A stretch of 63,901 nucleotides of DNA, the filler included, from Reclinomonas americana ATCC 50394 (lineage: Eukaryota), in the NCBI GenBank assembly GCA_048213135.1. It is 9 parts of 9 records of this genome, joined end to end, with 100 filler letters (N's around TTAATTAATTAA, not from the genome) between each part and the next. Parts side by side here need not be neighbours in the genome. Positions count along the whole stretch, not along the records: positions 24,581 to 33,074 come from AFZH01019741.1; positions 33,175 to 41,432 come from AFZH01019742.1; positions 41,533 to 52,372 come from AFZH01019743.1; 6 more parts are not named here. One strand, written 5' to 3'. Position 1 is the first letter of the stretch; each line of letters opens with the position of its first letter. Of this stretch, positions 18,189 to 51,994 are shown in pieces. The position numbers were made by a program, and so were the translations under genes. The notes beneath the pieces are model-generated. The model searched no databases and was not told the DNA's origin. It saw only the letters and a program-made list of their open reading frames with translations.

Positions 18189-24480
<6,292 letters not shown>

Positions 24481-26326: not shown

Positions 26327-26389
26327 TGCTCTCACTCACTCAAAATTGCAACACAAAACTCCGAAGACTCAATCAACAAACAAACAACA

Positions 26390-28216
26390 ATGAGCGGTGA
26401 GCGCGTGAGTTGTCACAGCTCAGCTCTCGCTGTCACGCACTCACCACTGACTGTGTTCTCTCTCTCTCTCTCTCTGTTACAGGGGCTTCTGGATCTTCTT
26501 CTGGCGATCGTCTTCGCGGACCGCGTGAGGATGCGGTGGCAGAGGAGGTGGAGGAGACACCCACGCGTTTCATGCTGACCAAGTGCCATCGCACAATGGG
26601 CGACGTGGAGTGCGACTTGGATGTGCCGGAGAGCTCGTATGAGTTGCACATTCAAACGAGCAACATTGTTGCGTCTTTCTCTCTCTGTCTCTGTTGCGTG
26701 CGTGCGTCTCACTTTGTGTGTGAGGGAAAAGATGCACGTGGAGTGGCTGGATAAGCCAAAGCATGTGCTGATTGTCAAGAAGCCACGCGACGACACCAGC
26801 ACAATGTACTTGCGATTGATTTGCAAGTTAAGCAAGCGCTCAGTCGTACGTCTTTCACATGTGAGCTCACTGTGTCGAAAAGGTGGCTGCATGAGCACGG
26901 TATGGTGGCGTATGTGGAGGAGGCCATCAAGGACGACTTCCCCAACCTGCCGTACTTGACGGAGGAGGTTCGGCAGAAGCTCAGCTTTGCGATCACTCTC
27001 GGTGGCGACGGCACCATTCTGTGGCTCTCCAAGCTCTTCCCCGAAGCCATGCCGGCCGTGGTGTCGTTCCACAGTGGATCGTTGGGCTTTTTGGCTCCCT
27101 TTGGTGCGTGTATGTGTGTGTGTGCACGCGCACAAGACAACGCTCATTGATGATGGGCAGCGCTGGAGTCGTACGAGGAGACGCTCTCTCGTGTGTCCAA
27201 GGCCGGTGTACCACTCGGCGTCAGTCTGCGTTCGCGACTCATTGCCGCACACTTGCCGGGGTGTGCCTTGCGGCATGCGCATGGCGAGGCGCCGGCGGGA
27301 TGCGAAGCCAACTTCCTGCCTGATATCCTTGAGAATCTGTGATTCTGTCGTGCGTGCTATGCTAGTGACGGTGTGTTCCTTGACTCCTCGCTACAGCTGA
27401 TTGTGCTCAATGAGCTCCTGGTCGAGCGCGCCACCGGCGCCATGGTGCGTCTCGCCCCCACGTGACACGATTCGTGTGGTCGCTTACCGTCTCTCTTCGC
27501 CATAGTTGCTTCTCGAGTGCTTCGCCAACGACACCTTCTTCACGACAGTGCAAGCAGACGGGTGCGTTCCCTGAGTATCAAGGGGGGAAGGAGTGGGATA
27601 AATCGTGACTCACTTGCGATGGCCAGTGTGATTATCGCGACGCCGACTGGATCGACCGCGTACAGCATGTCGGCGGGCGGGTCCATGGTACACCCGGCGG
27701 TTCGTATTGTTGTCTCTGCGTGTAGCAGCAGGGGGGAGACAGAGCGCTGATGGGCTGTGGCCTCTGCAGGTTCCGTGCATGCTCTTCACTCCGATTTGCC
27801 CGCACACGCTCTCGTTCCGGCCGATCATTCTCCCGGATTGCACCCTGCTGCGCCTGCAAGTGCCACCCACTGCTCGGTGCGTGCTTGTGTCTGCCGTGTG
27901 CAGGAGGCACGTTGTTGATGTGTTTGTGCAGCACTGGTGCACGTGTGGTGGTCGACGGTCGACAGGTGCTCGAGTTGCAGCCGGGCGACGGTATCGCCGT
28001 CCGTATGCATGTGCATCCTGTGCCTGGTGCGTATGTAGCACAACTTTTGCTTCCACTCGCTCACTCGCTGACTCACTCGTTCCTTCCCCAGCCATTGTTC
28101 CGAGCCACGATGGTGGCGAGCAGCAGTGGTTCGAGCAGCTGGCCACGTGCCTGTTCTGGAACGTGCGCAAAGTGTTCCTCACCAAGCCCACCAAGGCATC
28201 ATCTACTACACAGTAA
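26390..28216 (+). CDS. NADK: NAD(H) kinase
   Basis: [69 protein letters not shown]. Contains an AT-AC intron. Confidence 0.95.
27323..27394 (+). other. U12-type (minor) AT-AC intron, 72 nt
   Basis: Donor ATATCCTT, branch TTCCTTGAC at 27376-27384, ends AC. Removal gives FLP-E-LIVLNE in frame. Confidence 0.92.
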
Positions 28217-28283
28217 GACAAGACTGTGTGTGCATTATTAAACAAGTAACAGGAGCAAAACAGGGGATTTAGATCGGCGAGCA

Positions 28284-31200
28284 TCAGCGTCGACGGCGAC
28301 TGGTTGGGAGGGAAGAGAGAATGAGAAAATGAGACTCTGGTGAGGTGAGGTGAGGTACTGGGGGAAGTGCAGGACGCAACGTGGGCGGGGCGAATTCCAT
28401 GTCGGTGACCGGGAACGTGTAATGCTCGGGCGTGACCTCGCAGCGCGACGCTAGGTAGTCGCTCATGTACATGGGCTGGAGAGGCACGAGTCCCAGCTTC
28501 TTCAGTTTCACACTGTCGTCCACGTCGAGTGCCACTCCGTCGGCCAGAGCCACATTCACCGCCTGCGTACGTACAGCACTCAGTAGCCGCAGACACGTGT
28601 CGCCAACAAGAGGAGAGCGGCCAACCGAAGTGATCGCAGAAACGACTTTGGCGCCACCCATCTCGCACACGCGGGCGAGCTTGTCACGCATACTGGCGTC
28701 GCCGACACCAAACCACACCACCCATCCATCAAAAATGCTGCGGAACAAGGGAACAAACGAGTGAGACTGTCATCCCTCTGTCAACCGCGACAGTGAAGCG
28801 CTGCACACCGTTCTCCACGCTCACGCTCCTTGCGACGCAGGGGCGCCGCAGTGGCCAGTTTGCGGAGTTGCTCGGCGTCCGCTGCAATCGCATCGCGTGA
28901 GTCGTCACGAAGCAGTGGTCGATGGCGTGAGCAACATAGACGCAACGAGTGGCGAGGCTGATGACTTCGGCGCTCCACTCGTGGTCCACCTCGCGCTCCC
29001 ACTTATTACTGGACTTGCTGTCGATGACGTACGACGGCTGCAGGATCCAAATGCCACGCGCCAGTGCCGACAGATACTTGGAGGTTTGCGTCGGCACGCC
29101 GGCGAGGAGGTGCGTGGTATCGTCGCACAGATCGGCGTCGTTGCGCAGTTCCGCATTCGGGAGTTGACGAATCACTGTGCGGGTGACCAGTCAGCCGTAG
29201 CCACGCAGAAAAGCAGCAGACACGCAACTCTTGGACAGTGCCTGCTTCTGTGAGACATCGTTGACGCCACTGATCTGGAACACTCTGCGATTCACAGAAT
29301 GAGTGATCGCGGAACGAGCGTCGGTAGCAGTTTGGGAGAGTCGATACCCACCGCTTCTTGTCGGCCGTTCCAGGACTGTCGATGCGCCGACGCTTCCACT
29401 CCGCACCCTCCTGTGACCCATAGTGCAGCAGCGTCTCCTCGCCACCCTCCATCTCATGTGAAGTGCGTTTGGTGACCGCCGACACGTTGAGATCGTGTCG
29501 GGAACGAGGACGCGGAATCTGTGTCGCTTGGCTCAGAAGGGGAACAAAAAAAGCGACTGAAACAAATTGCAGCGCTTACCGAGGCGCCGGCGCTGCCTGT
29601 GGACGACGAGCCGGAGCTCCGTGTCGGCTTGGCTGGGGCGGGAGATGGGTCGAGGAGGGCCAGCAAGTCCGAAATGTGCGGATCGTCAATGGGTTTCGGT
29701 GGTGCCGGTGGTGGAGGTGGGGGCGCCGGCGGCGGCGCAGCCGCAGACACTTGATCGATTTCCATGGGAGCAGCAGTGGTGGTGGCAGCGGGCTTGCTGC
29801 GAGTCAACTCTGACAGATGGCCACCCAGCAGGGCCACGGCACTGGCCAGCGGCTTTCGCCGTGTCTCCTCCGCTTTGCCGGCAGTGGTGACAGTGGAGAC
29901 CGCAGCGGTGGCGGCGGGCTTTTCCGGTGATTTCTGCGGTGATTTCTGCGGCAGTGGTGGGAGTGGGGCAGCGCGTGCTGGCGAGCGCTGCGGTTGCGGT
30001 GGCGATCGCTGTGCAGGCGGCTCGACATGCTGGCGAGTGGTCGCCATCGCCGGCTTCGGCAGAGGCACAGCTTCAGTGACCCGATTGCTCGGCAAGCTCA
30101 CCGGCGGCGGCGACGGCGGCCGTGCGACCGCTTCGTAGGCACGAGCAACATGCGCCCCGAACTGGAGCTGTGCACTCGCTGCCACCGCCTGCAGCGCCGC
30201 GTCGGTCTCCTCCGCGGCTGCCTCTGTCATCGACGGCATGTCAAGAGGGGAGAGAAAGAGAAGGAGAGAGGGATACACACCACAACGGGACGCAACTCTC
30301 GCTTCGCTGCACTGCCGGGCTGAGAGCCTTCAGAGCGTCGGCGGTCTCCAGTCGCGGAGCCACCGCCGCTTGTGGAGCCGCAATGCGGAAGCGACGGAGA
30401 CACGACGACGGGCACGACTCGTCCGAGCGCAACTCCGACTCCACGTGATCGATGTGGTAGGCGGTGGGCGAGCACATTTCGCCCTTGCGCATGCTGTCCC
30501 ACAGCCAGTTCGGGTGCACAATGGGCAGCTGCAGGAGGCAGGGTGAGACTGAGGTTATCGACAGGGGAGAGAACATGCCAGTTAAGGATGGACCTTGCGT
30601 CGTCGAAACAGTTCCTGGCGCTTGCCGGTAGCCACTGGAGTGACCAATATTAGAGGGTTGGCATTCTGGAACAATTCCTTCTTGCTGTTGATCGTGTGTG
30701 AGAAGAGAGGCACACAAGAAACTGCAGAACGTCAACACGCAACTTGCTGCGCATCTCCACAATCGAGCAGCCGAATGCGCTGACCACGACAGTGGCGTGC
30801 TCCACCTCACTGGACTCCATGCCAGCAAAGGCGACCTGCCACGGTGGATCGGGTTTGCGTCCGGCAATCACTGCCGGCGAGTACACAATGCTGGAGTCGA
30901 GTGGCAACACGCGTTGCAACTGCATACACGACGTAAGTGAACTTGACCACGCCACACGCAGTGGATCATTAACAACAACAACAACAGACCCGAATGCAGT
31001 CGCCAATCCAGCCCGTGGTGCACGCAAAGACGGCAACTTCGGTGCTGCCCTCGAAGCCGCCGAAAGCCTCCTTCATCGTGCGCTTCAGCTCGTCCTTGCT
31101 CGAGAACACTCGTTTCGTGACGGCATAGGTCGGCATCTCACTGCGTGAGGGATGGGTGGCCTTGGTCATCTGGCGGTAGGCACCGGGTTGGATGACACGG

Positions 31201-33298
31201 CCACCCTGCAGCACAATCTGCTCGGCCACCTCGGCCACGGCATGCGCACTCAGCGAGTCGGTCAGCTGGAAACACAGCTTGGCAAACACGCGGCCGTGAG
31301 TGGCGGGTGTGGTGGACGCAGGCGCCGCTGCTGCCGCCGCTGCCGCTGCTGCCGCTGCTGCGGCCGTTGATTCCGCAGTCGTACTTGGGCGAGGTGCAGA
31401 GGAGCCACCGAGGGCAGCGGAGGACGACCGCCGTGCGACACTGCATGACGAACACAAACGTGAGTCAGGCTGATGCTTCGAGAGACACAGGGCGAGTGAG
31501 TCATTCGCACCGTGCATCGGGCAGGTCGTCGACGTTAATCAGATACTGCGCGGAGACGGGAACGAGCAGAGATCGCCGTTCGCACTCCTGCAGCCAGGAC
31601 AGCGACACGATCCGCGCACCGCGGTTGGCTTGCGCCAGAGGGTACAGATCGCGGGCTTTTGGCTCGCTGCCGACCACCACATGCGTAATGTCACTGGACG
31701 GGGAGCCGGTTGGCAGTCGAATGGCACCACGCTGTGAACGGGGGAACGGGGCGAGTCAGAAACCTTGTATGTGTAAAAGGAAAAGCACGCCGAACACGAC
31801 GCACCATGCGGCAGATCGTCTTGGCTTCTTCGAGCTCACCGGTGGTCATGCCCGAGAGCATGACCTTGCACCCGTCGAGGAAGAGCGACTCGACGCCAAA
31901 GACATCGTCGCCAAACGGCGGCTGCAGCAGGGAGCGCAAGTCTGCGGCGAGAGGGTGGTGAGCGACGCACAGGCACAACATGAAGTGCTTGCCATTCAAC
32001 TCTTTACGCCACGGAAGGGACTGGCGGCGGTAGGCTTCTTGCCAGATCGCGGTATCGCGGGTGGTGCTGGGCGATCCGACGAGACCTACAGCACATGCGA
32101 GTCAATGATCCAACACACTTTGCTGTCAACTGAAATCAAAAAGCACGCGCACCTCCTCCATTTCATCGGCGCCTCCGCGACCTGCACGACGACCGGCGCC
32201 CATGGACGAACCGGGTGTGGGCTTCACGACGGCCGACTGATTCCAGCTGTCTTCCTGCGGGCGCACCAAGTACGAATCCATGGCGACAAATGCTGCGCTC
32301 GCACACACACGCACACGACAGTGTGAGACAGAGGAGCGCGACAACGCATGCAGAGAGCAAGAGAGCGCACCTTTGGAGGCGGCCACCTGCTGCAGCCAGT
32401 CGGGATGCACCAGCGTCACACGCGGATGCTGCACGGCCACCGCAATCTTCTGCCGCTGCACATCAAACTCGTGTTGTCGCCATTACCCAGTGAGACAAGG
32501 TTTGGGGAGGGAAGAGAGAGAGACAGACCGCGCACACACACACACATATCTTGGCGATCAGCACATTGCACACGGTGCAGTCGAGCGTGTCGTCCCACAC
32601 GCCGCCCAGCTCACGACAAGTGCGCATGCACGGCTCTCGCTCGGCCGCCGACAGACCAGTGGACGACATGCGCAGGCCAGCCAGCGGCGGCAGCACAAAC
32701 GACTCCGCAGGAAGCATCTCGCCACGCTCCTGCGAGGCATCGAGCCACTGCCGACCAATCACAGGCAAACCGATTTCCATGGCCCGCTGACGATGAAATG
32801 AATGAATGAATGCGATCACCAGAGACGCTCTCTCTCTCTCTCTCTCTCATACACACTCACCGAGTGCACATCGCTGCCGACACGCGCACACACAACATGC
32901 GTGATGGTCTTGTCGAGCGCGGCTTGCACTCGACAATGAAGACTGGTGGCGCATGCGGCTAATGCAGACTGCAGTGCGCCACTATGTGAGGGTACAAGAG
33001 AGTGAGAGTGAGAGAGAGGCACAAACACACACACGCACAGTGTCATCTTTGGAGAAGCCATCGAGCACAATCACNNNNNNNNNNNNNNNNNNNNNNNNNN
33101 NNNNNNNNNNNNNNNNNNTTAATTAATTAANNNNNNNNNNNNNNNNNNNNNNNNNNNNNNNNNNNNNNNNNNNNAGGGCCACCGACTGGTGTTCCACGAG
33201 ACTGCGCGCACAAACGACTGTGAGCGACTGTGTGGCAAGAGAGAGGAGGAGAAGGAGGGGGAGAAAGAAGAGAGACTCACAGAGCGACGAGCGCTCAT
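28284..33298 (-). CDS. TOPBP1: Multi-BRCT checkpoint protein TopBP1/Rad4-like (spans a gap)
   Basis: Several BRCT cores (LPVIGRQWLDAS, LVHPDWL, IVHPNWLWDS, THLLAGVPTQTSKYLSALARGIWILQPSYV, FDGWVV...CEMGGAKV). The putative first exon MSARRS at 33298 is tentative. Confidence 0.8.
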
Positions 33299-33536
33299 GC
33301 GCTTCACTTCAAGTGTGTTTTGTAGGGAAAGGGACAATCGTGATGTGCGGGAGAGTGACGTCACTTTGACGACGCTGCGACATGCATGTGTCGTTGTGCG
33401 AGTCATACAGGCGTGTTCCCGCGTTGGCCAAAGCAAGCAGCGCGCGTGGTGATTCAATCACAAGAAAAAACGACGGATCACGATATCAACAAGTCGACGA
33501 CGTCGTCGACCTCTTTTCTAACATGTACACATTCAT

Positions 33537-36500
33537 TCACAAGCCCAGTTGTCTTTGCAGTGCAAGCCATGCCGACTGCACGGCGCTGGTGAGCCGTCCA
33601 CCCAGCACACTCGACACGGACGCGATGACAGTCGCGGAGGTCGATGTCGACCTCGACGTTGCAGCGGTGGCCACTTGCGTGCCGCCTGCCACCACCAGCG
33701 CATACTGGTCGAAGAGATCGGTGGAGACGCGTCGTTGTGCGCGCTGAGTGGGAGCATCAATTGTGAGTGGAGGATGTGAGCAGATACTCTCTCATTCTGT
33801 CAACGCAACATGAGTGAGTGCGGTGAGCAGCACACTGCCGATGAGCGTCAGTGCACCGAGAGAGCCCTTCACGAGGCCCACGCGATTCGAGTCGCGACTC
33901 CTGTGCATGTGAGATGAGCATGCATGATGACTGCGTGCACATGTGCATGCATCCTTGTCTGTCTGTGCGCGTAACAGGCGAAAGAGAACACGGGCGAGCA
34001 GTGGATGCATGTCTCCCGTCGTCAGCTCATGCGGAGGGATCGAACTACAGGACTGTCTTTCGTGGTTTTATTCACCAGACGACGTCGAGGAGACAATGTC
34101 GACGGCCGGGTACCGCCCGTGTACTTGTTGTATGGTGTGACTGGTGATTTCGGTGCCGCGCAAGTCGAGTTCGCGAAGCCGTGGACACAGGTCGAGCAGG
34201 CGGAAGAGGCCTTCGCGAGTGACGTTGGTCTGTGCTCCCTCAGATTAGCTCGTGTGTCGCGCAGCGAGGAAGATCAATCAACACGCAACAGAATCGTGCA
34301 GGTCGACGGCAATCACCGAGGGGCAGCACGCGGCCACCAGCTCCACAATGTCGTCGTCGACGAGGGGCGAGTCGGCCAGGCGGAGGACTTCGATCTCGGA
34401 ACCGATCAGGTTGCGCCACAGATCGGCCTCCTCCTCCGACACCGTGCCCGTACATGCGCCTACGCACGCACGCAGTCAGCTTTGCTTGCTCGCTCGCCGC
34501 GCGCGCATCAAGAAACATACACACGCACCCTGTGATATTCTACGCTCGCAATAAATCTGTCGCCAGTCGCCGGCGCACACGTCAAACACCTCCGACACCT
34601 CCAGATGCCGCTTTGCCAGCAGGAACCACATCACATCGAGAGGCACCTCACACACGGTGGCCAGCAGATCCTGCACCTGGAACAGGTCCAGCAGGTCCAC
34701 GTCGAGCAAGAACGACGACGTCAACTCGGCCATCAGCGACGCAGACACCTCGCGCACGTCGCACGTCAACGGCAGACAGCGCATGTACAACACAGGAATC
34801 TGCACAGAGCGTGACAGTCAACACTTCCCTGCGTGTGCATGCCGTGCACACAAACAAGCCGACACGCACCTGCAACTCCTTGCTGGCCGCCAACATGAAT
34901 TCGGGTCCCTCGGCCGGCATCCACTACAGAGAGAGCAGGTCGTTCAGTCTCTCCCCCCAACACGTCGACAGCACAACTCCCACTACGCAACAAGTGCCGT
35001 CTCCGAGACCAAGAGATTGGGGTCGCACAGGATCTCCACCACCGCCGCGCACACGTGCTCACTAAAGATCGCACCCAGCACGACTTGATCACCTGGAGCC
35101 GCAGACCGGAAGGCACTCGAGTAACTGGCGGCCAGCGACAGCGGCAGCGCGAATTGCCGACCAGAGGCCGCACACACAAGGAAGGCCGACGACGACATGC
35201 GCACGGCACTGCCGTTGCTCAGTCGCGTCTCCCACTCGTCCATTGGCTCGCCGCCCATTTCACCATCACCGTCGAGCGCTCCCTGCGCACACGTGTGTGA
35301 ACAAGGAGCAGTGACACATCACCATCAACACATGCCCGCACCTCAGCCGCTGCTCCCGCATCTTGCGGCGACACCACCATGGCGGACCGGGGAGGAATAA
35401 CAAAATAGTCCGGGTGGATGAGTGGCGGCTTGTCGGAGCGCGGCGCGTTCTCCAGCAGAATGTCCAACGGATCGCGTGGAGTGGGCGACATGGACGACGG
35501 CGACACGATACTCGACGACGACGCGCCACCAATGTCCCCGTTCGCGCGTGGAGTCGAGGCCCCCGAGGCGGTCGCCGACGAGCCACCACTCATCGGCTGA
35601 CCCTGGTATCGCCTGTGCAGCATCTGCAACTCCAGCACCTGACGCGCCACATGTCGCTGACCTGCGCAGTGCCAGTGTGAGCCGAGCATACGACAAAGCG
35701 CCCACCAATCAACGCACTTGACATGAGGGCGCTGAGGCTCGGACTCTGCGGTCGCCCAGAGGCCGAGCGACTTGAGGTTGGCGACTGCGATGTCACGAAC
35801 AACATGAGAATGCGGTGGAGAAAATGCGAAAGGCACCTGCGCGACACGCAACAATCTCGGTGCTGCCGTTGAGTCGCGACAGTGGCAATGGTGGCACCGT
35901 CAGTGTACCACGGAAGCCCATACCACCGCTGCCACCACTACTATCCAAGCCCGATGGGCGAGGTGAGAGAGGTGAGCGCTGTCGTACCACATCGTCGAGC
36001 GACACTCGCACAGTTTGCGCCTCGTTGCCACCAACGGAAGCGTCACTGTGTCGCGACGAAGAGGCGATTGAACGCTGCGAGAACGACGACTTGCGAATGG
36101 CACGCGGCCACGGTCCACTGCCACGGCGGAAGAGCGACGTGCCATACTCGCGAGCACCACGGACCACCCGGCGCATCCACGTGCGCGCCGGTTTTCCATT
36201 CACCGACTGCCGCGCCACCGAGACCGAGCTGTAGTCGGACATGGCGGAGCTCGTGGCAGAGCGCGGCGAGTAGCCGGGTGCAATCGAGGAGAAGAGACCA
36301 CGAAGGGTGGACAGGTTGCTGCACCGGCAAGAAGAGGGGGAGTGAGCGTGATGGAGAAGGGATTTTTTGAAAATGTGAGAGGCACAGACCTGGCGCCGTA
36401 TGCCTCCACCGACGAGGCCAGAGATGCAGAATCGGCCTGCGAGCAATGAGGAGAGTGAGAGGTCATGAATGGAGAAGTCGCAAGTGAAGAAGAATCAGCT

Positions 36501-39500
36501 GTGCAAACCTCCGGTGATCTGCACAAGCATCATGTGGTCAGTCAATAGCAGTACAGCACAAGCACAACGAACAAACGCAACGATGCTCTGACTTGTGGCC
36601 GCGTGGAGCTTGCCGACACATTCAGCGCCTCCTCCGCCTTCAGTTCTGCGTGCAGCTGCACCAGCTCCGACACATCACGGAGGTGGTCGATCAGCTGACC
36701 AAACTCCTCAGCCCTGCCAACCGCCTCCTCAAAATCGCTGACCAGCTGCTCAAGCACGACAGGGACAGCGTGTCAGCAAAGAGCACAACAACAATCCCTG
36801 CTCAAAACAGAGACACACGCACCCAGTCAATGTGCGCGCCAAACATCGTTCCCGACTTTTCAAAATCGTCGTCTCCCGTCTCCGACTCGTTGCTGCCGCT
36901 TGCGGACGGTTTCTTCTGCAAGCACACATCAGCATCATCAAGCAATCATAATGAGCGAGGGAGACACTGACCGGTGAGCGGTACAGCTGGAGAATGGTGT
37001 GGCGGAACTCGTCACGCTGCTCGCTGAGCACATTCTCCGTCTCCAGCGACGCCGAATAAACGCATGTCTGTCAAGCAGTAGAAGTGAGACCGATGTTCCA
37101 CATACTGCGCGCACTTCACAAGGATGCTCACCTGCGTCACCAAATCGTCCGTCACCACCAGCACATCAATCATGTCTCGCAGCACGCCGGCCACCTGTCG
37201 CACATCTTCGCCATCCACCTGCGCGACAGGGATGTAAGCAAGGAGGCGCTCTCACTGACGTGAAGCCCACGACAGCGTGCCACGCAACTGCCTCCACCAG
37301 TGCAGATCGCAGAATCTCACTCATGACTTGCGTGCAGATTTGCTCGGAGGTCGAACGAAGCCGCTGTTGTGCCAACACGCTCTCCATAAAGACTGCCTTC
37401 GGGATCCCAAACAGTTCGTAAATGCCGAAATCCACCGAGTACACGGTCGCCCCTGCCAGCTCCGTGGCCTCCTTGTCCTCGAGCTGGACGGGGAAAAGGC
37501 GTCAACAACACCGTCGCCAACACATAAGTGCATCGTAAAGAAGACATACCTCGCCAACCGTGCTGGAGCGCCGGGCGGCAGTCACGGGCACCTTGGGTGC
37601 CACAGGTCGACCACGGCGCAAAGTCATTACTCGCGATGCGCTGGTGGGGTCAGCCTGCCAACATGCACTGTTTTAGCACAAACAAACACACACATCCGAG
37701 CAATGCAGCGTGGAGGGGACACGCACCGCCAGTCGTCGTTCCAGCTCAGCGAGTCTCTCCTGCGCACTCGACCACAGATTGATGGAGAAGCCGGGTGAGA
37801 GGACGCCTTGCACAATCGCACTGCGCGCGTCCTCATGAACGAATTTCGGCAGAGCGCCAATGCGGCTCCGCAGCTCCTCGTAATCCAAGTTCGGCTGTGC
37901 GAGAGAACGAGAGTGAGCCAACTGCAGAGGCACGCCACGGGCGGCCAACGAGCATCGACTCACCGCCTCGGGGACGCGATCGCTGACCGACGGACCACCC
38001 TGCAGGCACCAGTTGATCACTCGCATGACCCACCGCATCGGGTTCCACATGCGCTGATGATCCAGCAGCTGCACGATGACCGGTGCGTCTTGCGCTCGCA
38101 ACGTACCGGTGATCAGCGACCGTGCAAGTTCGTCCAGTGTTTCACCGCTGATCAAATGAGTGGTAAGTGACAAATCGACAAAAGGGAGAAGAGAGAAACA
38201 TTAACGTACCGACGCGCCTGCTCCGACAGCGCGCTGCGGAGGTGCGCCACAGTGCCGCAATAGTCCGTGTACAAATCTCGACAAAAGACTTGATAGTTCT
38301 GCGACTCGAACGTGCGCAGGTACCGCCACAAGAACTCCTCGCCCCAGTCGACCTCCATCAGTGGCCAAGAGACGAACAATGCAGTCAAGGATTAGATATA
38401 GAAAAGAAGACAAGACGCAGTGCGTGAGCTAAGCATGGCAACAAAGAAGGATATCTCCTGGCTCGAAGATCTGGCCAAACAGAATCAGCTCGATTTGGTT
38501 TTTCTCGTCGAGGAACACGCGCTCCACGTCGTACAGGCGACCCAGCTGGCCGCTGCTGGAGAATTGTTGCTGCGCGCACAAGGAGAGCGATAAGAGCAAA
38601 GATCACGTAAACTGTCAGGCAGTCACAGTCGTACGTACCTCCAGCTCCTTCACTGCCGTCTGGAAGCGCTGCTTCATGTTCATCTCCGACGCCGGCATGC
38701 CCGGAATGATCCACTCGCCTTCACCGGCAAACACATTCTTCTCCTTGCGCACGCGCCACAAGCGGATCCACTCCCATTCTTCGGGAGTCAGCACTGCGCC
38801 AGCCTTGATTTGCACTCCGGGAATCATGCAGCGCATTTCCGAGTCGACCAATATCCTAAAACCGCGGTCCTCCGAGTAGAACTTGACGGCCGCTGTGGAG
38901 AATGAGTGAGTCGCCATTCCCTTGCTCGTCACCCTGACAGGATCACGCACCAACATAAACTCCCGGATGCAGCGCAGGTGAATCATCGTCTGCACTCATG
39001 CGCTTGGCGTGCTTTTGCGCTGCACGCACCCATCGCTGGCCGGTAAATGTCTGCGCCAGCATACCCAGATGCGTCCCCTCATCCATTCCTTGGTAAACCT
39101 TGTAGAACTGCACAGCGACCGATCAGCACTCTTCTTCCGCACACATGCAAAGTGTGAAACTCAACTCGCTCCTCAAAATCTTCGGCATCGATCCACTTGT
39201 AGCGATCACGACGTGGCAACGGAAAGTTAACATCGGTCTCCGGGAACACCACGCACGTGACGAGCAGGAGGTGTTGCGACGACTGCGACAACAGAACGCA
39301 CGATCAACACACAGGGGGGCATGTATCAGGAAGAGGAGAAGACGTCACTCACTTCGCTGCCAATTGACACTGGCCGATCGAATGGCACGCCGAGCTCAGC
39401 ACTGCCGAGTAGCTGCTTCATCTCCAGCGCCGCCGTGGCAATCGCCTTGCGAATCGGTGTGATACCAATCTCGCCTGATCACCATTGTTCTCACGTGAGC

Positions 39501-41432: not shown

Positions 41433-41532
41433 NNNNNNNNNNNNNNNNNNNNNNNNNNNNNNNNNNNNNNNNNNNNTTAATTAATTAANNNNNNNNNNNN
41501 NNNNNNNNNNNNNNNNNNNNNNNNNNNNNNNN

Positions 41533-41794: not shown

Positions 41795-41820
41795 TTGTGA
41801 CTCCGAGTGGCGAGAGGCGA

Positions 41821-42446: not shown

Positions 42447-42596
42447 AAGAGAGAGCAGTTGTTGAGCGGATTGCTGTTACTTGTCGCTGCTTGCTTCCCC
42501 TCATGGCCATGGTGGCCACCGTGCTGGGGATTTAGTCCAATCGGTCTTTCGATTCCCTTTCAGTTTCTCATAGCACCCTCGAGCAGCAGCAACCAC

Positions 42597-43223
42597 ATGT
42601 CGAGCGACTTCCCCGACGTAAGTTCATCGCCCTTTGTGCCACAGCCGCAAACGCCCGCGGCACACGAGGCAGCGCAGCGAGATGTGGAGGTTCGTGATAT
42701 TGTACGCTGTCTTACACTCGGCCGCCGACACTCACTTTGTACTTTGTCTCCAGCACATTCGCACTCTCCGTCCGCAATACATGGCCAGTGGTGTGTGTAT
42801 GTCTCTCTCACTGACCTCCACTGTCAACCCGGGCTCACTGCTGTGCAGGGTTAACTGGTGCGGTTGCCGGTGGAGCCACCAGCTACGCACTCTTGCGCTT
42901 TGTTCGTTGCGTCCAGTATTCCTCTCGCTCTGCTCCGCTTCTCTCTTCACTCTCCGACGCACCACCACTGCAGCACGTTTCTCGCGGCTGGCCGACCGTC
43001 GCGTTCCAATTGTCATTGGTAAGCTGTCTCGGAGATTCTCTCGTCATCGCGCGCCCTTCTGCTCACATGATGCCGCCTGCAAGGATCGTCGGTGGTGGGC
43101 GCGCTCGTCACCTCCTACATCGCCGGACGCATGTACACCACGGCCTTGCGGGATGCGAAGCTGCGCCTGCAGGAGTACGACAGTCGACTCCGCACCAGTG
43201 GCAGCACATCGATGCCGCACTGA
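42597..43223 (+). CDS. Small two-TM protein, paralogue B
   Basis: Spliced: MSSDFPD...LRPQYMASGLTGAVAGGATSYALLRFVPRFSRLADRRVPIVIGSSVVGALVTSYIAGRMYTTALRDAK...MPH*. Same intron positions as paralogue A. Confidence 0.75.
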
Positions 43224-43419
43224 CATGCACCGAACAATCGTCTTCGCCTTTGTACATATTGTTTAATATTGCGATTAAAAGAGAGGCAGCACTGTCAACA
43301 AGCGTCACTCCTTGTTCCTCCTCCCACCGCCCCAGCCGCAGCAGCAGCGGTCTCGGAAAAAAGAGAGAAAAGTTGTCGCGACAAGAATCGCAGCGCCGTG
43401 TCTCTGCGCGGATCACCGA

Positions 43420-45117: not shown

Positions 45118-45155
45118 AAACGCAGGCGTTTCCGTACTTCATCTTTGTTTGTTGA

Positions 45156-46470
45156 ATGCGTTTTGTGCGACTTGGCAGTGGTGGAGAGGCGTCTCTGGTG
45201 CCGTTTGAGGGCCAGACAGTAGTGGTGGTGAGTGCACTCACAGAGAGAGAGAGAGAGCGGGCAGAGAGTGTGACTGAGTGGAACAAATTGTGTGAGGAAA
45301 GCATGAGCATGCCGGGAGTGGCGAGGAGAGTTGTCTCCCTGTCTGTGCACTTGCTTCAGTGTCAGCGAGTGTGCATGCTCCGACATGCGTGTGTGTGTGT
45401 GCGTGCGGATGACTTGAGTTGTCCACTCTGTCATGCGCATCTCTCTGTCTTTCTCTCACACACACTCTGGCTCTGTGTGTGTGTACCCTGCTGCCCTTCC
45501 ACACACACACACGCACGCCCGTCGACTTGCTGTCACATGAACATTCCCCCTTCATTTCCCTGTGATAACATTGCTCTCATACATATGCAGCCGACCCTCG
45601 GCACAGGCAACCTCGGTCAACTGGTCGTCGACCTGCTGATCAGCAACCTGTGCCCCAGTGCAGCCTCGCCAACCACCTGCGGAGTGCGTCGCGTGGGCCT
45701 GCTGGACACACCGCACGTGCTTCCCTTTGCCTCGGCCGACCCGTACATGTCTCCGAGCGCCACTGCCTCCTCCAAGAAGAGCAAGCGTCGTGCTGCTGCT
45801 GCTGCAGTCGCAGCAGCGAGTGAGTCAGTGCGCCAGGAGCCCATGCACTTTGCGCTGGAGGTGTACCAGGCGGCAGAGGCGCCCATTACGCTGCTGCAGC
45901 TGCGCTCGCCGATTCGACGTGGGCGCACCGAGGACTTTTCGCGCGAGTTGAGCGCGTGGATTGCGGAGCAGCGCTTCTCGCGGGTGCTGGTGGCCGCCGG
46001 TGGCAACGCCTCGTGGTCGGCCGATGCTGACATTGAAGGGTACGCGAACGGTGCCTTTGTGTGTCAGTAAGTGGTGAGGCTCATTGCGCGTGTGTGGCAG
46101 GCCGCATCTGTGCACGCTCGGGCACAAGGAGTGGGCCGACGCACTGCCGGCTCCGCTTCCGCACCTGGACCACGCCTCGCCACAAGCTCACCTGTACTAC
46201 GGCTCACGCAGCCCACTGGTGCTGCTGCTGAACGCGCTCACGGCCGAGGCCGATGCCGCCGCTCGGTTACCCTCACTGGTTGTCTCGCGTCTCTGCAACG
46301 AGGGCGACAACACCGCCGATGCGTTCATTCTCGCCGAGCTGGCACTGGCCGCACTGACCAGCGTGCTTGGCGAGAGACCTCCGTTGGCTCCTGAGTGGCG
46401 CATGCCCACGAGCTGGTCGCTGCTGTTCGGACCGTCTCTGTCCATGTCGGGCGCGAGCGACATCTTTTGA
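45156..46470 (+). CDS. PSMG2: Proteasome assembly chaperone 2 (PAC2)
   Basis: VVV|PTLGTGNLGQLVVDLLI, ALEVY, LLQLRSP, LCNEGDNTADA, WRMPTSWSLLFG. First intron is 363 nt (45228-45590). Confidence 0.9.
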
Positions 46471-46528
46471 CAGAGAACGAAGACAAGATCGCGAGTGTGG
46501 GCGAGAACGTAGTTAGTGAATCGATCTC

Positions 46529-47907
46529 ATGGCAGCTGCATCAGTGGGCGAGGGAGAGAAGAGTGCATCGCGTGAGCAAGTGGAGCTCATTGCAGCTGCG
46601 GATGAGTTCTTTCGCGTGTCAACACCTCCACGTTGCACAGACGAGGTCTGTGCGTGCGAGTGTGCAACAGCAGCGCGCTTGTCTCCTTCACTGATGTGCG
46701 CTCTCTCTTGCTGCATCAGCTGCGGCAGGAGGTGGAGGCCTTTTGCAGCATGCACGCTGCGAGTGGTCGCCGACTGGTGTGTGTGACCAGTGGAGGCACC
46801 ACTGTGCCTCTGGAGCGCAACACTGTGCGCTTTATCAGCAACTTCTCGTCGGGAACACGAGGCGCGGCCTCAGTAGAGTTAAGACAGAGACACGCACACA
46901 CACAAAGATAGACTTTTGTGCTCATTGATTGATATCTTTGTTGATTAGGTACTTTATCCGAGCTGGATATGCTGTGGTGTTCCTCAATCGACGCTTCTCG
47001 ATCCAGCCCTATAACAGGCACATTCTCGAGGCGAAAACGAACGTATTAGACTTGGTGCGAGTCGACGAAAGCGGGCGCATCGTTGGTGCGTGAGGGAGAC
47101 ATTGTTGGCGAGGCCAGGTGACAAACAGTACCGACTGGTGTGTATTGCAGTGACGGAGGAGACGCAGCATACGCAGTTCCCGCGAGTGGTGGCCGAGTAC
47201 CACGAGGCCATGTCGCAGAAACTGCTGCTGCGTGTGCCGTTTGAGACGGTATTTGAGTACTTGTTCTTCCTGCGCGTGGTTTGTGAGGCGTTTGCGCCGC
47301 ACGGTCGCTCGACAATGGTGTACTTGGCGGCGGCTGTCTCCGACTTTTATGTTCCCGAGGCGGCCATGGTATGCGCACGTGTGCCTCTGTCGTAGTTGCG
47401 TTCGTGCCCTCATGTGCGGCGCGCAGCCCGAGCACAAGATCCAGTCGTCGGCGGGACCGCCACCGATTGCGTTGCAGGAGGTGCCGAAGATGCTGCAGAT
47501 GATTCGCTTTCGCTGGGCGCCCGAGGCCTATGTTGTGTCCTTCAAGGTGAGGTTCATCGAAGAGGGGAAAGGAGGAGACGACGGCCTCACTCATTCGCGC
47601 CGCAGTTGGAGACCGACATTTCGTTGCTGGAGAAGAAGTCGCGCGACGCCATTGCACGGTACGACGTGAATAGCGTGGTGGCCAACATGCTGCAGAGCTA
47701 CAAGGAGTGGGTGGTGGTGTATCGCGCCGACGGCGGCGAATCACGATTGTCGCGAGTAGATGGCGAGGAGCTGGAAAAGGTGCCTGCACAGCCGGCTCGT
47801 GCGCGAAAGTTGCCAACTCACGTGCATGTGTTTTTTTCCCGCAGCCCCTGGTGCACACGCTCGTGCAGTTCCACGACGACTGGCTCCTCACTGGCGAGAC
47901 GACGTAG
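46529..47907 (+). CDS. PPCS: Phosphopantothenate-cysteine ligase
   Basis: [68 protein letters not shown]. Confidence 0.95.
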
Positions 47908-47976
47908 CGGCCGGCACGACAGACGAAAACCAACAAAAACAATAAAATGCAGATTTTGGGTTCATTCGTCCATTCG

Positions 47977-49433
47977 TCACGCGTCACTCGAGGAACCCGA
48001 TCCGCTGCCGTATCCACCGAGGCCGAGCAGTGCTTCTGACGGCTCCGCACCTGCAACGCGTAGCACGTCAGTGTCTTCCCCCGTGAGTGGAATTGACCAT
48101 TGTGGTGCACGCAACTGACTGCCGACTGCACCGGCGGCGGTGGTGGCGCTTTCGGCTTCACCTGGATGGCGATCTTGACGCCGGTGGCCTTGGGTTTCGC
48201 CAGCACCAGTGTGGCGTTGCCGATCTTTGCTCGCTTCAGTGCCGGCTCTCCGCTGTCCGCTGCGCTCTCTTTGGCCATCTCCAGCCCCTCGGCCATCATC
48301 GTGCGTTTCTAAAACCACAGCAGGAGTGAGAAAACACTGTTGCAAAAAGGATCCGGTGCTGCATCTCCAACTCACCCTGCCCTCCCCAGCACCGTCGCCC
48401 TCGTCGCTCTCCACACGCTTCACAATCGGCTGGTTCTCCGGGTCAAAGTACGAGCGCGCCAGCATCTCATCCTCCATCTCGATGCGCGCCAGCTGTTCAC
48501 CACGGGTGAGACGACGATGCATTTGCAGCACAACGAACGACAACACAGAACACTCACCAGCTCCTCATACTTTTTCCGGTGCATGTCGAGCAGAGTGTCC
48601 GTGTCGACGCGCGCATGCAGCGCATTCATCGAGCGAATCTCGTCGAGCTTGTCCAGCATCTCTGCAACACACACACGCACGAGTTCAGCAAACAGCCTCA
48701 GCACAATGCGGAGGCCAGCACGCACCCATCTCCGCCTTGGAATCAATCGTCCGACTCTCCAACAGCTTCATCGCATCGACCTCGTCCAACTTGGCGCCCG
48801 CCTCACGCTCCAGCTCCTTCTCACGATGCTCGACCCACGGCTCAAAGTTCCGAATGCACCCCGCCTCCGCAATGTAATCGCTGTTCTTCGGATCGGTCTT
48901 GATCGTGAACTCGCCCGCACACACCGGACACCGCATGTAGAAGCGGAAGATGCGCAAGCCGAGGTAGTCCTCGCCTTGCACGGTTTCCTTTCGCATAGGA
49001 TGAGCAAGCTGCATTGAGACTGTGTGTGTTGTCTCGAGCAGACCTTTCGCGAGTTGAACTTTTTGCCTGCGCCCATGTACTCTCCACACGTGGAGCAACG
49101 CAGACTCATCGGCAACATCATGCGCACAGTGACTTGCATGTCTTTGGGTCGCCGAGTGCGAGGCACCAGTGCCGGCTAACAAAAAATAAGCACAGTGTGA
49201 GAGAGAGAACAGCAGTTGCTCTAAGAGAGCAAGCGCGTAACATCAAAGTCCGCTGCAGTGAGAGAGAGAGAGAGAGAGTGAGCAGAGAGAGAGAGAGAAA
49301 GATGCATTTTCGCGCGCGCGCAACGCAACGTGGATAGTACTTTTGAATAACCTGCGCTCACACACACGCACAATGGTCAGTAACGCACACACTCTCACAC
49401 TCTCACGCACAAACGCACCTTGCGCTCGCCCAT
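47977..49433 (-). CDS. YJU2: Splicing factor YJU2/CCDC94
   Basis: [72 protein letters not shown]. Confidence 0.93.
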
Positions 49434-49652
49434 TGTGTGTGTGTGTGCGTGTATGACAATCACGATGATGAGTCACCGCGGGTGATTGTCCCTCGCAGTG
49501 TCTCGCAACCACTGCACAGCTGTCAAATACCTCACTCACTTTTCTCTCTCATACATATACGCCCGCACCCTGCATTCTCCTTCTCCTTTTTTCGTGCGTG
49601 ACAATTGAGGTAGTGAGTCACCTCCCGGGATTGGCCGTGATTGTACCTTGCG

Positions 49653-51994
49653 ATGTTGGGGGGCGCCAGTGGTCACTCCACTAGCGGTCTTCCCGCCGGT
49701 TTCTACCGCACAACTGTCGAGTATCGTGTGCGCATTACGCGCGTGCGACAGCAGATTGTGCGATCAGGTGAGTGAGAGTGAGAAAAAGTTGACTGCACTC
49801 TCTCTCTGTCTCTCTGTCTCTCTGTCTCTCACGCGCATTTGTGCGTAGACTGGGTGCTTCCCGAGCGCTACGAGCTCACCTCTGTGCTGGGCTCGGGCGC
49901 ATTTGGTGTTGTTGTGTTGCGTTGTTTTCGTCACACAGTGTCTCTCTTTGTCTCTCTGTGTGTGTGACTCTTTGTGTGTCGCAGTGCGGCGCTTGATAAG
50001 GAGAGTGGGCGACAGGTGGCTGTCAAACGCGTGGAGAATGCCTTTCGCTCGGCCGCAGAAGCCAAGCGGTTTGCCTTTGTCACTCTCACAGTCAACCCCC
50101 CCACTCATCCCTCTCTAACATCTGACTGACACACGCAGCTTGTTGCGCGAGTTGAAGATCTTGCGACACATGCATCATGATAACGTGCGTCGCCTTCTCG
50201 TTGTATATCGACAAGGTCGACATTGAATTTCTTTTGCTTCGTGACAGATCATTCGACTGGTCGACATGGCAAAGCCGACTGCGTATGCCGATTTTCGGCA
50301 CTTGTACTTTGTGTTTGAGCGCTGCCATGTCGACTATTCCACGTTGCGACTCTCGTGTCCGTTGATATCGGCCGCTCTCGTCTCTCATGCGGCGATTGCA
50401 GGGTGCTCAAGTCGCCGGTTCCCATTACGGAGGATCAGCGACGGCGCTTCCTCTATGAGATGTTCAAGGCGCTCAAGTACATTCACTCGGCCAATGTGCT
50501 TCACCGTGACCTGAAGCCCGGTAATATTCTCACCACGGAGGAGGGCGCCATCAAGCTGTGCGATTTTGGGCTGGCGCGCTCCGTCAATCATCAGGGCGAG
50601 GATCGGTCGTCGCCCGAAATGACCCTCTATGTCGTTGCGTCCCTGTTGCCGCGGTGTCTGTGTCTCTGTGATGCTTACTCTCTAAGAAAATCCGAATCGT
50701 TAGGTGACACGGTGGTACCGTTGAGTATCTGCGTGCTTTGTCTCGTCTATGACCGTGTGCTCACCACAGGCTTCCTCGCACAGGCGCTCCGGAACTGCTG
50801 CTGTTCTTTTCGCGATACACCACAGCAAATATCCTTATCGTTATCGTTAAGCTTGCTGCTCTTCTTCTTCTTCTTTGTCTCCGTCCTTGACTCACAGCTC
50901 GGGCGTGTCGCACTCGACGTGTGGTCGGCTGGGTGTGTGAACTTCTTGTTTCTCCTTCACTCCACCTCCGCCCTTGCACTGAACAACTTTTTCCGTGCAG
51001 TTGCATCTTTGCCGAGACGTATTTGCGGTCGCCGCTCTTCCCGGGCTCCACTCGTTGCGTTTCTCCCCAGCGCCCACTTTGCCGCCTCCGCCGTCATTTG
51101 TCGCTCACTGGCGGAGTGCAGAGCTCAACCAAATCACCACGGTGTTCAACCTGATCGGGACACCGAGTCAGGAGGAGGTTGATGAGATTGGCTCGGCAGA
51201 GGTTACGTGCATGTGATTCGACTCGTGAGTCCGGCGCGGTCGTCCTCATCTCTCTCTTCGCACAGGCAAGACAGTGGCTGTCTACGCAACCGAGAAAAGC
51301 ACGGAGCTCATTTGCGGCCAAGTTCCCACAAGCGCCAGACGAAGGTACTTGCTTCATCATCGTCGCAGTCTCCTTTGTCTTCACGTGGTTCTCATCTCGT
51401 CCGCGGCAGCCATTGATCTGCTGGAGCGCATGCTGGTGTTCCACCCGTCGAATCGCATCTCGGTCGACGACGCTCTCGCGCACCCCTATTTTAGCTCGAT
51501 TCGTGATCCCGCGTCGGAGACCACGGCGCCCAGCACGCTCAACTTTGAGTTTGAGCAGCAGGACTTGACGCAGGAGACTGTCAGAGGTCCGTCTCTTTTT
51601 TTTGCCTGGCGATGTGTGTCTATTCCCCTCTCATCATGCCGCAGAACTAATCTGGCACGAGATCGCGTCGATGCATCCCGACCTCGTACCGCTCGGACCC
51701 ACACCACCGGAGGGTGCCGCCGCCACCGACGCTCCTCCCGAGGTGGAAGCCGCCGGTGGCTCCGGCTCCGCGCCACCAGAGTCGGACGCAGACACCGGAG
51801 CCACTGACGACGGCAGCTCCAGCGCAGCGGCCGACGGTGGCGGAAGCAGCAGCAGCGGCAGCTTCCTCAGCCCGATTTTGCCCACGCCTCCGCCTCCGCC
51901 CATGGCGACAGATGCGGGCTCGCCACCAGCGGACCCGCTGTCGCTTTCGTCGTCAGACTACGCAACACCACCGCCGCCTCCAACATCCGTGTGA
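49653..51994 (+). CDS. Mitogen-activated protein kinase (activation loop TLY)
   Basis: LGSGAFGVV, VAVKRV, RLLRELKILRH, HRDLKPGN, CDFGLARS, MTLYVVTRWYRAPE, AIDVWSAGC, DLLERMLVFHPSNRISVDDALAHPY. Confidence 0.94.
50829..50913 (+). other. U12-type (minor) AT-AC intron, 85 nt
   Basis: Donor ATATCCTT, branch TCCTTGAC at 50884-50891, ends AC. Removal restores the conserved kinase subdomain IX YTTA-I-DVWSAG. Confidence 0.95.

What the first reader, a model, noticed from the sequence alone, without database searches (positions are those of the whole stretch)
27323..50913. Three U12-type AT-AC introns in 64 kb: an active and possibly expanded minor spliceosome
Seen: three unrelated genes (NAD kinase 27323-27394 +, large ANKFN1-like gene 38361-38454 -, MAPK 50829-50913 +) each have an intron starting ATATCCTT, containing TCCTTGAC and ending AC. 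Each restores the reading frame. I found no GTATCCTT (GT-AG U12) donor. Established: these are the U11/U12 recognition signals; minor introns are normally well under 1% of introns, mostly GT-AG in animals and plants, and lost in many protists. Inference: three among very roughly 150-200 introns, all AT-AC, suggests an unusually high and AT-AC-biased minor intron load that GT-AG gene predictors would mis-annotate.
Basis: partly seen in the sequence, partly recalled or inferred. Interest (0 to 1): 0.85.

Follow-up and report, generated by a model that had tools for sequence, protein, structure and literature searches.

The report
Three genuine U12-type AT-AC introns
Three unrelated genes of an unidentified, intron-rich microbial eukaryote each carry a textbook minor-spliceosome (AT-AC) intron, so the organism very likely has a working minor spliceosome, but this sample is too small to show that such introns are unusually common.

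Summary
ATATCCTT occurs 3 times in the window against 0.11 expected. Each copy is followed 54-63 nt later by TCCTTGAC and then by a YAC end at the stated coordinates. GTATCCTT is absent.

Support differs by gene:
- MAPK: 5 of 5 homolog alignments require the AT-AC intron.
- Large gene: coding potential switches frame exactly as a 94-nt intron predicts. Without that intron the ab initio model breaks in two.
- NAD kinase: only the AC end keeps the frame, but homology is neutral.

All three introns are phase 1 and share no sequence beyond the splice signals.

My own gene finder predicts 133-220 introns in the window. That gives about 1.4% minor introns, with a 95% CI of 0.29-4.0%. This is suggestive of a high, AT-AC-dominated load similar to Blastocystis, not proof of expansion.

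No genome, RNA run or snRNA gene could be examined. The label "ANKFN1-like" is not supported. The window is nine contigs joined by spacers, and the three introns lie on different contigs.

The parts
27323..27394 (+). U12-type AT-AC intron in the NAD kinase gene. 72 nt, phase 1. 5'ss ATATCCTT at 27323-27330; branch site TTCCTTGAC with TCCTTGAC at 27377-27384; branch A 11 nt before the TAC end.
   Evidence: Removes an in-frame TGA at 27340. The AG at 27395-27396 would shift the frame. Flanking exons hit Pfam NAD_kinase and NAD_kinase_C. Homology is neutral. The GT-AG alternatives have acceptor score 0.1 or lengths of 105 and 177 nt.
38361..38454 (-). U12-type AT-AC intron in a large gene of unknown family. 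94 nt, phase 1. 5'ss ATATCCTT at 38454-38447; TCCTTGAC at 38391-38384; branch A 24 nt before the CAC end.
   Evidence: Coding log-odds are +15.1 in the upstream exon, -13 to -27 in the intron in all frames, and +16.9 in the downstream exon in the frame shifted by one. The ab initio gene breaks into two genes when U12 introns are disallowed.
50829..50913 (+). U12-type AT-AC intron in a MAPK gene. 85 nt, phase 1. 5'ss ATATCCTT at 50829-50836; TCCTTGAC at 50884-50891; branch A 23 nt before the CAC end. Followed by a 19-nt micro-exon at 50914-50932.
   Evidence: 5 of 5 spliced alignments to MAPK homologs place this exact intron and give YTTA-I-DVWSAG.
26572..28216 (+). NAD kinase gene (ab initio bounds). 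About 9 introns, the others GT-AG of 55-70 nt.
   Evidence: Pfam PF01513 and PF20143 on exon ORFs; spliced alignments; gene finder.
34068..39421 (-). Large gene of unknown family (ab initio model, 25 exons).
   Evidence: Gene finder. No Pfam family on 67 exon-level ORFs apart from two sub-threshold hits. One 170-aa fragmentary relative at 49% identity shows that the gene is real.
49653..51994 (+). MAPK gene. 13 introns in the homology-supported part (49916-51644): 12 GT-AG of 58-70 nt and 1 AT-AC.

Best explanation
The three sites are genuine U12-dependent (minor-spliceosome) introns of the AT-AC subtype. They lie in three unrelated genes on three separate contigs of one unidentified, very intron-dense eukaryote.

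Proposed mechanism. Only the motifs are shown here; the steps are established for the family but inferred for this organism.
- U11 snRNP pairs with the extended 5' splice site ATATCCTT.
- U12 snRNA pairs with TCCTTGAC, bulging the second-last A as branch point.
- The first usable YAC downstream, 11 to 24 nt away, is taken as the 3' splice site.
- U4atac/U6atac.U5 then carry out catalysis.

Because retention gives an in-frame stop (NAD kinase) or a frameshift (MAPK, large gene), the organism must have an active minor spliceosome.

The window-level frequency is about 1.4% of introns, all AT-AC. This points to a load at or above the top of the usual range, dominated by the AT-AC subtype as in Blastocystis. 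An expansion is not shown.
For: - Motifs: ATATCCTT occurs 3 times against 0.11 expected, with 0 of 100 shuffles reaching 3. Each is followed at +54 to +63 nt by TCCTTGAC and ends in YAC.
- MAPK: 5 of 5 homolog alignments use exactly 50829-50913 and restore the conserved kinase motif.
- Large gene: coding potential is +15.1 / negative in all three frames / +16.9, with the frame shift that a 94-nt intron requires. The gene model splits without it: score 433.8 against 78.0 plus 329.7.
- NAD kinase: only the AC end preserves the frame. The GT-AG alternatives score poorly: acceptor 0.1, below the 5th percentile of 2.8, or a length of 177 nt against a 5-95% range of 54-90 nt.
- In the homology-supported gene models the minor intron is the longest intron: 85 against 58-70 nt in MAPK, and 72 against 55-70 nt in NAD kinase.
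- The three contigs share the same major-intron style, so they come from one organism.
- Denominator: 133-220 predicted introns, with 0 genes predicted in 3 Markov-resampled controls.
Against: - No RNA evidence, no genome and no minor snRNA or minor-specific protein could be examined.
- NAD kinase: 0 of 4 free homolog alignments chose the AT-AC intron. Forced comparisons are neutral: 510 against 517, 343 against 324, 513 against 520, and 278 against 280.
- The retrained ab initio model is unreliable at the MAPK micro-exons. At penalty 15 it shifted the U12 3' end to 50918, and at penalty 18 it dropped this intron. Scores with and without U12 were nearly equal there, 142.2 against 141.6, so MAPK rests on homology.
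- Branch-to-3'ss distances of 23-24 nt in two introns are longer than the classical optimum of roughly 10-15 nt (recalled). They are within the 45-nt limit used in the Physarum preprint.
- The intron denominator comes from a home-made gene finder trained on this same window.
Confidence: 0.9

Rival explanations
1. The introns are real, but the genome's minor-intron load is ordinary (0.5% of introns or less). Three in this sample is a sampling fluctuation, helped by the fact that MAPK genes commonly keep ancestral minor introns.
For: - The 95% CI of 3/215 reaches down to 0.29%. P(>=3) is 0.022 at 0.276% and 0.118 at 0.554%.
- Nearly all surveyed lineages lie at or below about 0.5% (PMC10639083).
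- 69% of human MAPK genes contain a minor intron (PMC6865273).
- The window reached me because a reader noticed these introns, so there is a selection effect.
Against: - The point estimate is 1.2-2.3% over the whole range of denominators.
- The nine contigs are an unlinked sample rather than one neighbourhood.
- 3 of 3 being AT-AC has probability 0.018 under a human-like subtype mix.
Confidence: 0.5
2. At the NAD kinase site the transcript is spliced by the major spliceosome at a nearby GT-AG pair (27261-27365 or 27220-27396), and the U12 signals there are fortuitous.
For: Two of four homolog alignments chose 27261-27365. Removing it scores 7 points higher than removing the AT-AC intron for P0121 and P0124.
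Against: - Acceptor score is 0.1 for 27365. The other pair has donor score 2.9 and a length of 177 nt. Both are outliers against 212 predicted major introns.
- The chance of a perfect ATATCCTT, then TCCTTGAC 54 nt later, then an in-frame AC 11 nt after the branch A is negligible.
- For P0123 the AT-AC model scores 19 points higher.
Confidence: 0.05
3. The motifs are chance matches, or the introns are U2-dependent AT-AC introns, and there is no minor spliceosome.
For: None beyond the absence of direct RNA or snRNA data.
Against: The donor octamer is enriched about 27-fold, and it is paired with the branch octamer in 3 of 3 cases. U2-dependent AT-AC introns lack the extended ATATCCTT and TCCTTRAC signals (established knowledge; PMC1557818 seen as abstract only).
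Confidence: 0.02

Closest known systems
Canonical U12-type AT-AC introns of animals and plants
   Same: Identical extended 5' splice site (ATATCCTT), branch site within the TTCCTTRAC consensus, YAC 3' end, non-zero phase, and one minor intron per gene among many major introns (consensus as quoted in the Physarum preprint).
   Different: The host is an unidentified, phylogenetically isolated protist-like eukaryote with 55-70-nt major introns. Two of the three have a branch-to-3'ss spacing of 23-24 nt. No GT-AG subtype was seen in the sample, whereas GT-AG is the majority subtype in most species (PMC10639083).
Blastocystis sp. ST1 minor introns
   Same: AT-AC-dominated (196 of 253, 77%; PMC10639083) and comparatively frequent. 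The genome paper reports 346 U12-type introns in 319 genes (PMC5608401). That is about 0.9% of introns by my arithmetic from that paper's statement that 59 introns are about 0.16% of all introns.
   Different: Blastocystis minor introns average 42 nt and favour phase 0. Here they are 72-94 nt and all phase 1. No Blastocystis-like protein identity was seen; the best hits are 50-60% identical to assorted eukaryotes.
Physarum polycephalum minor-intron expansion
   Same: A microbial eukaryote in which minor introns are far from rare: more than 20,000 (preprint 10.1101/2020.10.12.336362, abstract and passages).
   Different: - Physarum introns are mostly GT-AG (3021 GTATCCTT against 627 ATATCCTT).
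- They have lost the classic branch site in favour of TTTGA, with a co-evolved U12 snRNA.
- The authors propose that they arose from a transposable element.
- Here the branch site is canonical, the introns share no sequence beyond the signals, and an expansion is not shown.
Minor introns of the MAPK gene family
   Same: A MAPK gene carrying a single minor intron. 69% of human MAPK genes do (PMC6865273).
   Different: Whether the position (phase 1 in the codon after YTTA, before DVWS) is homologous to the animal MAPK minor introns was not tested, because no animal gene structures are available with these tools.

Membership tests
U12-type (minor spliceosomal) intron, AT-AC subtype | Extended 5' splice site /ATATCCTT | tested here: met
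   Perfect 8 of 8 match in 3 of 3 introns; 3 matches in the window against 0.11 expected.
U12-type (minor spliceosomal) intron, AT-AC subtype | Branch-site motif TCCTTRAC close to the 3' end (45 nt or less) | tested here: met
   TCCTTGAC in 3 of 3 introns, with the branch A 11, 24 and 23 nt from the 3' splice site. The 45-nt limit is as quoted.
U12-type (minor spliceosomal) intron, AT-AC subtype | 3' terminal YAC, with no AG or AC at a usable distance closer to the branch point | tested here: met
   The ends are TAC, CAC and CAC. In MAPK the closer AC and AG lie 5 and 7 nt from the branch A. In the large gene there is none in between.
U12-type (minor spliceosomal) intron, AT-AC subtype | Removal yields the correct, conserved coding sequence | tested here: met
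   MAPK: 5 of 5 homolog alignments. Large gene: frame and coding potential. NAD kinase: frame met, homology inconclusive.
U12-type (minor spliceosomal) intron, AT-AC subtype | Junctions observed in RNA | not testable with these tools
   No RNA holder was listed for the window, so read laying could not be used.
U12-type (minor spliceosomal) intron, AT-AC subtype | Genome encodes U11, U12, U4atac and U6atac snRNAs and the minor-specific proteins | not testable with these tools
   No whole genome is held. There are 0 Rfam matches at gathering score in the 63.9-kb window.
Expanded minor-intron complement (Physarum-like, well above 1% of introns) | Genome-wide minor-intron fraction far above the usual 0.5% or less | tested here: inconclusive
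   3 of 133-220 predicted introns. At 215 introns this is 1.4%, 95% CI 0.29-4.0%. Window sample only.
Expanded minor-intron complement (Physarum-like, well above 1% of introns) | Signs of recent gain: sequence-similar introns or transformed splice signals | tested here: not met
   The three introns align only at the splice motifs, and the signals are fully canonical.
   - None of 67 exon-level ORFs of the contig's minus strand hits ANK, FN3 or RA in Pfam at E <= 0.05.
- No hit in the word-indexed protein search or in the Atlas.
- The caveat is that only single exons could be scanned.

The most novel reading that the evidence does not exclude
This unidentified, deep-branching eukaryote carries minor introns at 1% or more of all introns. 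They are almost exclusively AT-AC and have invariant canonical signals (ATATCCTT and TCCTTGAC). That would be the densest canonical-signal minor-intron complement known. Unlike Physarum, it would have been reached without transforming the branch site. The uniform G in TCCTTGAC might be mirrored by a compensating base in its U12 snRNA.
Probability: 0.22. Interest if true: 0.65.

Novelty: new member of a known kind. Interest (0 to 1): 0.42.

Why it matters
Minor introns are rare, ancient and repeatedly lost. Lineages where they are frequent or of unusual subtype (Physarum, Blastocystis) are the main natural experiments for how the two spliceosomes co-evolve.

These three introns show that an otherwise unrepresented eukaryote has kept the system with fully canonical signals. 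They also hint at an AT-AC-rich, above-average load. If a genome-wide count confirmed this, it would add a third independent case.

There is a practical point too. GT-AG-only gene prediction will break or distort these genes, so annotation of this genome must allow AT-AC introns.

Tried and rejected
- **Whole-genome search for U12 snRNA:** no genome is held.
- **RNA evidence:** no RNA holder was listed, so no reads could be laid.
- **Earlier scan notes:** none on this genome or on look-alike stretches. A word search returned only two unrelated human U12 introns.
- **Rfam on the window:** 0 matches at gathering score.
- **Organism identification and close relatives:**
  - MAPK exon: best identities about 50-60%.
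  - NAD kinase exon: 8 hits, all 60% or less.
  - Large-gene exon: 0 hits.
  - Atlas: no usable hit, twice.
  - Representative search: 3 hits, of which only one is a fragmentary relative of 170 aa from a 915-nt contig. It stops before the U12 junction.
  - Metagenome scan with the MAPK exon: 80 loci kept, best 57% identity, so no close relative.
- **U12-like donor and branch pairs in the 80 loci:** none at the homologous MAPK site. Most of these loci look fungal (my guess, not checked), so this says little.
- **PWM-only intron counting:** rejected. The matrices drifted to GT-rich low-complexity sequence, and observed counts exceeded the shuffles by only about 50-77 at the four stricter threshold pairs, and not at all at the loosest.
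- **First gene-finder run:** rejected. With a low intron penalty it merged whole contigs into single genes (452 introns).
- **Shared-element origin of the three introns:** no similarity beyond the motifs.
- **Other candidate minor introns:**
  - 19514 (-), GTATCTTT with TCCTTAAT at +165, is antisense to an ABC-transporter exon.
  - 40364 (-), GTATCTTT, lies inside a long coding ORF just upstream of a normal GTGCGT donor.
  - TCCTTAAC at 30581-30588 (-) sits at the 5' end of an ordinary GT-AG intron.
- **Positional homology of the MAPK intron with animal MAPK minor introns:** not tested. No gene structures are available, and my memory of the exon maps is not reliable.
- **Supplementary tables of the cited surveys:** not opened. 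They may list per-species densities that bear on the comparison.
Full report
**1. Observation**

The three sites are exactly as described.

| Gene | Coordinates | Length | ATATCCTT | TCCTTGAC | End |
|---|---|---|---|---|---|
| NAD kinase | 27323-27394 (+) | 72 nt | 27323 | 27377-27384 | ...CTAC at 27394 |
| Large gene | 38454-38361 (-) | 94 nt | 38454 | 38391-38384 | ...CCAC at 38361 |
| MAPK | 50829-50913 (+) | 85 nt | 50829 | 50884-50891 | ...GCAC at 50913 |

- ATATCCTT has 3 matches on both strands against 0.11 expected from 100 dinucleotide-preserving shuffles. None of the shuffles reaches 3.
- TCCTTGAC has 4 matches against 1.96 expected, and three of them sit 54, 63 and 55 nt after the three donors. 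From, the chance of that octamer in a given 100-nt stretch is about 0.0015 (my arithmetic), so three pairings by chance can be dismissed.
- GTATCCTT is absent, and so is GTATCCT.
- I combined the 40 one-mismatch variants of RTATCCTT with all 8 TCCTTRAY sites. Only one further pair appears. It starts at 19514 on the minus strand and is antisense to an ABC-transporter exon with a Pfam hit on the plus strand.
- GTATCTTT at 40364 (-) lies in a long coding ORF just before a normal GTGCGT donor.
- TCCTTAAC at 30581-30588 (-) lies at the 5' end of an ordinary GT-AG intron.

**2. What the window is**

The window is not one contiguous stretch. Eight spacers of the form N44-TTAATTAATTAA-N44 join nine contigs of 2.9-13 kb. 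The three introns are on three different contigs: 24581-33074, 33175-41432 and 41533-52372. "Three in 64 kb" is therefore a small unlinked sample of a fragmented assembly, not a cluster.

The contigs share one style of major intron: 55-70 nt long, donors GTGCGT or GTTGCG, acceptor CAG. They also share a strong codon bias, with third positions about 73% G+C. This indicates one organism.

No whole genome is held, no RNA run was listed, and there are no earlier notes. No protein search gave a relative above about 60% identity. The organism stays unidentified and appears to be unrepresented in the protein collections.

**3. Are they introns?**

*MAPK.* I wrote a protein-to-genome spliced aligner that allows GT-AG, GC-AG and AT-AC introns at equal or similar cost. 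I aligned five MAPK homologs (P0008, P0040, P0042, P0058, P0010).
- All five give the same 12 introns between 49916 and 51644.
- Eleven are GT-AG of 58-70 nt. One is the AT-AC intron 50829-50913, in phase 1.
- The result is the conserved ...RYTTA-I-DVWSAG-CIFAE....
- This intron is followed by a 19-nt micro-exon at 50914-50932.

*NAD kinase.* The flanking exon ORFs hit PF01513 and PF20143.
- Both flanks are in the same frame.
- The 72-nt intron contains an in-frame TGA at 27340.
- Only the AC at 27393-27394 keeps the downstream ...[11 protein letters not shown]... in frame. The AG two bases later does not.
- Homology does not decide here, because the site falls in a variable loop.
  - 0 of 4 free alignments chose the AT-AC intron. 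Two chose a GT-AG pair at 27261-27365.
  - With each candidate removed in silico, the AT-AC model against the 27261-27365 alternative scores 510 against 517 (P0121), 343 against 324 (P0123), 513 against 520 (P0124) and 278 against 280 (P0125).
- The alternatives are poor introns by this organism's own standards.
  - 27261-27365 has acceptor score 0.1, where the 5th percentile of 212 predicted major introns is 2.8.
  - 27220-27396 has donor score 2.9 and is 177 nt long, where the 5-95% range is 54-90 nt.

*Large gene.*
- The upstream exon 38569-38455 has coding log-odds of +15.1 in one frame.
- The 94-nt intron is negative in all three frames (-13 to -27).
- The downstream exon 38360-38210 scores +16.9 in the frame displaced by one, as a 3n+1 intron requires.
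- With U12 introns disallowed, my gene finder splits the gene in two, scoring 78.0 plus 329.7 instead of 433.8.
- A 170-aa fragmentary relative at 49% identity shows that the gene is real, but it ends before the junction.
  - None of 67 exon-level ORFs hits ankyrin, FN3 or RA families.
  - Only single exons could be scanned, which is a limitation.

*Shared features.* All three introns are phase 1. In the two genes with homology-supported models, the minor intron is the longest intron of its gene. The three introns align with each other only at the splice signals. There is therefore no sign of a repeated element behind them.

**4. Weak points of the ab initio evidence**

- The gene finder was trained on this same window.
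- After retraining it mis-handles the MAPK micro-exons.
  - At intron penalty 15 it moved the U12 3' end to 50918.
  - At penalty 18 it dropped that intron.
  - Its scores there with and without U12 introns are almost equal, 142.2 against 141.6.
- The MAPK intron therefore rests on homology, the large-gene intron on coding potential, and the NAD kinase intron on frame plus signals.
- Branch-to-3' distances are 11, 24 and 23 nt. The last two exceed the classical optimum (recalled). They are the first usable AC or AG beyond the branch point, and they lie within the 45-nt limit quoted in the Physarum preprint.

**5. How frequent?**

Two early attempts at counting introns were discarded. The calibrated gene finder recovers all 18 homology-supported major introns and the two U12 introns in the test genes at penalty 15 or higher.

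| Intron penalty | Predicted introns over three training rounds |
|---|---|
| 15 | 189, 220, 215 |
| 18 | 133, 180, 195 |

In three Markov-resampled controls it predicts 0 genes.

- With 215 introns, the fraction is 1.4%, Clopper-Pearson 95% CI 0.29-4.0%. Over denominators of 130-250 the point estimate is 1.2-2.3%.
- P(>=3 of 215) is 0.022 at 0.276% (human) and 0.118 at 0.554% (Basidiobolus, the highest reported in fungi). It is 0.36 at 1%. The densities come from Larue and Roy 2023, PMC10639083; I read sections 23-24 and passages.
- Three of three AT-AC has probability 0.018 at the human fraction of about 26% and 0.46 at the Blastocystis fraction of 77%.

The data lean towards a high, AT-AC-rich load but do not establish it. 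The window was also selected because the introns were noticed.

**6. Comparison with what is known**

- The signals match the canonical definition: [G/A]TATCCTT, and TTCCTT[G/A]AC within 45 nt of the 3' end, as quoted.
- *Blastocystis ST1* is the closest precedent for an AT-AC-dominated, relatively dense complement.
  - 346 U12-type introns in 319 genes (PMC5608401, passages). This is about 0.9% of introns by my arithmetic.
  - 253 introns, 77% AT-AC, mean length 42 nt and a phase-0 bias in PMC10639083.
  - The introns here are longer and in phase 1.
- *Physarum* has more than 20,000 minor introns. They are mostly GT-AG, with a transformed TTTGA branch site and a co-evolved U12 snRNA (preprint, abstract and passages). 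Here the signals are canonical.
- MAPK genes are a family enriched for minor introns: 69% of the human genes carry one (PMC6865273, passages). Positional homology was not tested.
- NADK does not occur in the text of that review (0 occurrences).

**7. Verdict**

- The reading "U12-type AT-AC introns, hence an active minor spliceosome" is well supported by sequence, frame, homology and coding potential. It lacks RNA or snRNA confirmation.
- "Expanded" remains an open possibility. I put it at about 0.2 for 1% or more.
- This is a new member of a known kind, of moderate interest. It would become considerably more interesting if a genome-wide count confirmed a canonical-signal, AT-AC-only load above 1%.

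Noticed in passing
window 13033-13132, 18389-18488, 24481-24580, 33075-33174, 41433-41532, 52373-52472, 57109-57208, 60116-60215: Eight spacers of the form N44-TTAATTAATTAA-N44 (a stop in all six frames) join nine contigs. The window is a concatenation of a fragmented assembly, so neighbouring genes across spacers need not be neighbours in the genome.
   Followed up: yes
window 57209-60115, ORF 58355-59131 (-): This contig carries an LGFP-repeat ORF (Pfam PF08310, E = 4e-94, 4 repeats). The nearest relatives found are actinobacterial (Blastococcus, Mycetocola and others) at only 35-57% identity. It is either a bacterial contaminant contig or a horizontally acquired gene. If it is a contaminant, the intron denominator changes by only about one intron.
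   Followed up: partly
window 49916-51644 (+): Extreme intron density: 13 introns in about 1.06 kb of MAPK coding sequence. There are micro-exons of 16 nt (50704-50719) and 19 nt (50914-50932). The 19-nt exon lies between the U12 3' splice site and the next U2 donor.
   Followed up: partly
whole window, predicted major introns: The major-intron donors are unusual. GTGCGT (34) and GTTGCG (23) are the commonest hexamers among 212 predicted introns, ahead of GTGAGT (16). Median intron length is 67 nt.
   Followed up: no
whole window: No protein search found a relative above about 60% identity, and no self-hit. The organism seems absent from the annotated protein and transcriptome collections that were searched.
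   Followed up: partly
window 48688-49242 (-): An exon of a Saf4/Yju2 splicing-factor homolog (PF04502, E = 1.3e-32). This is a shared spliceosome component and is not specific to the minor spliceosome.
   Followed up: no
window 30581-30588 (-): A perfect TCCTTAAC lies directly after a GT donor (GTCCATCCTTAAC...) inside an ordinary 65-nt GT-AG intron. It is at the wrong end of the intron to be a U12 branch site, so I judged it a coincidence.
   Followed up: yes
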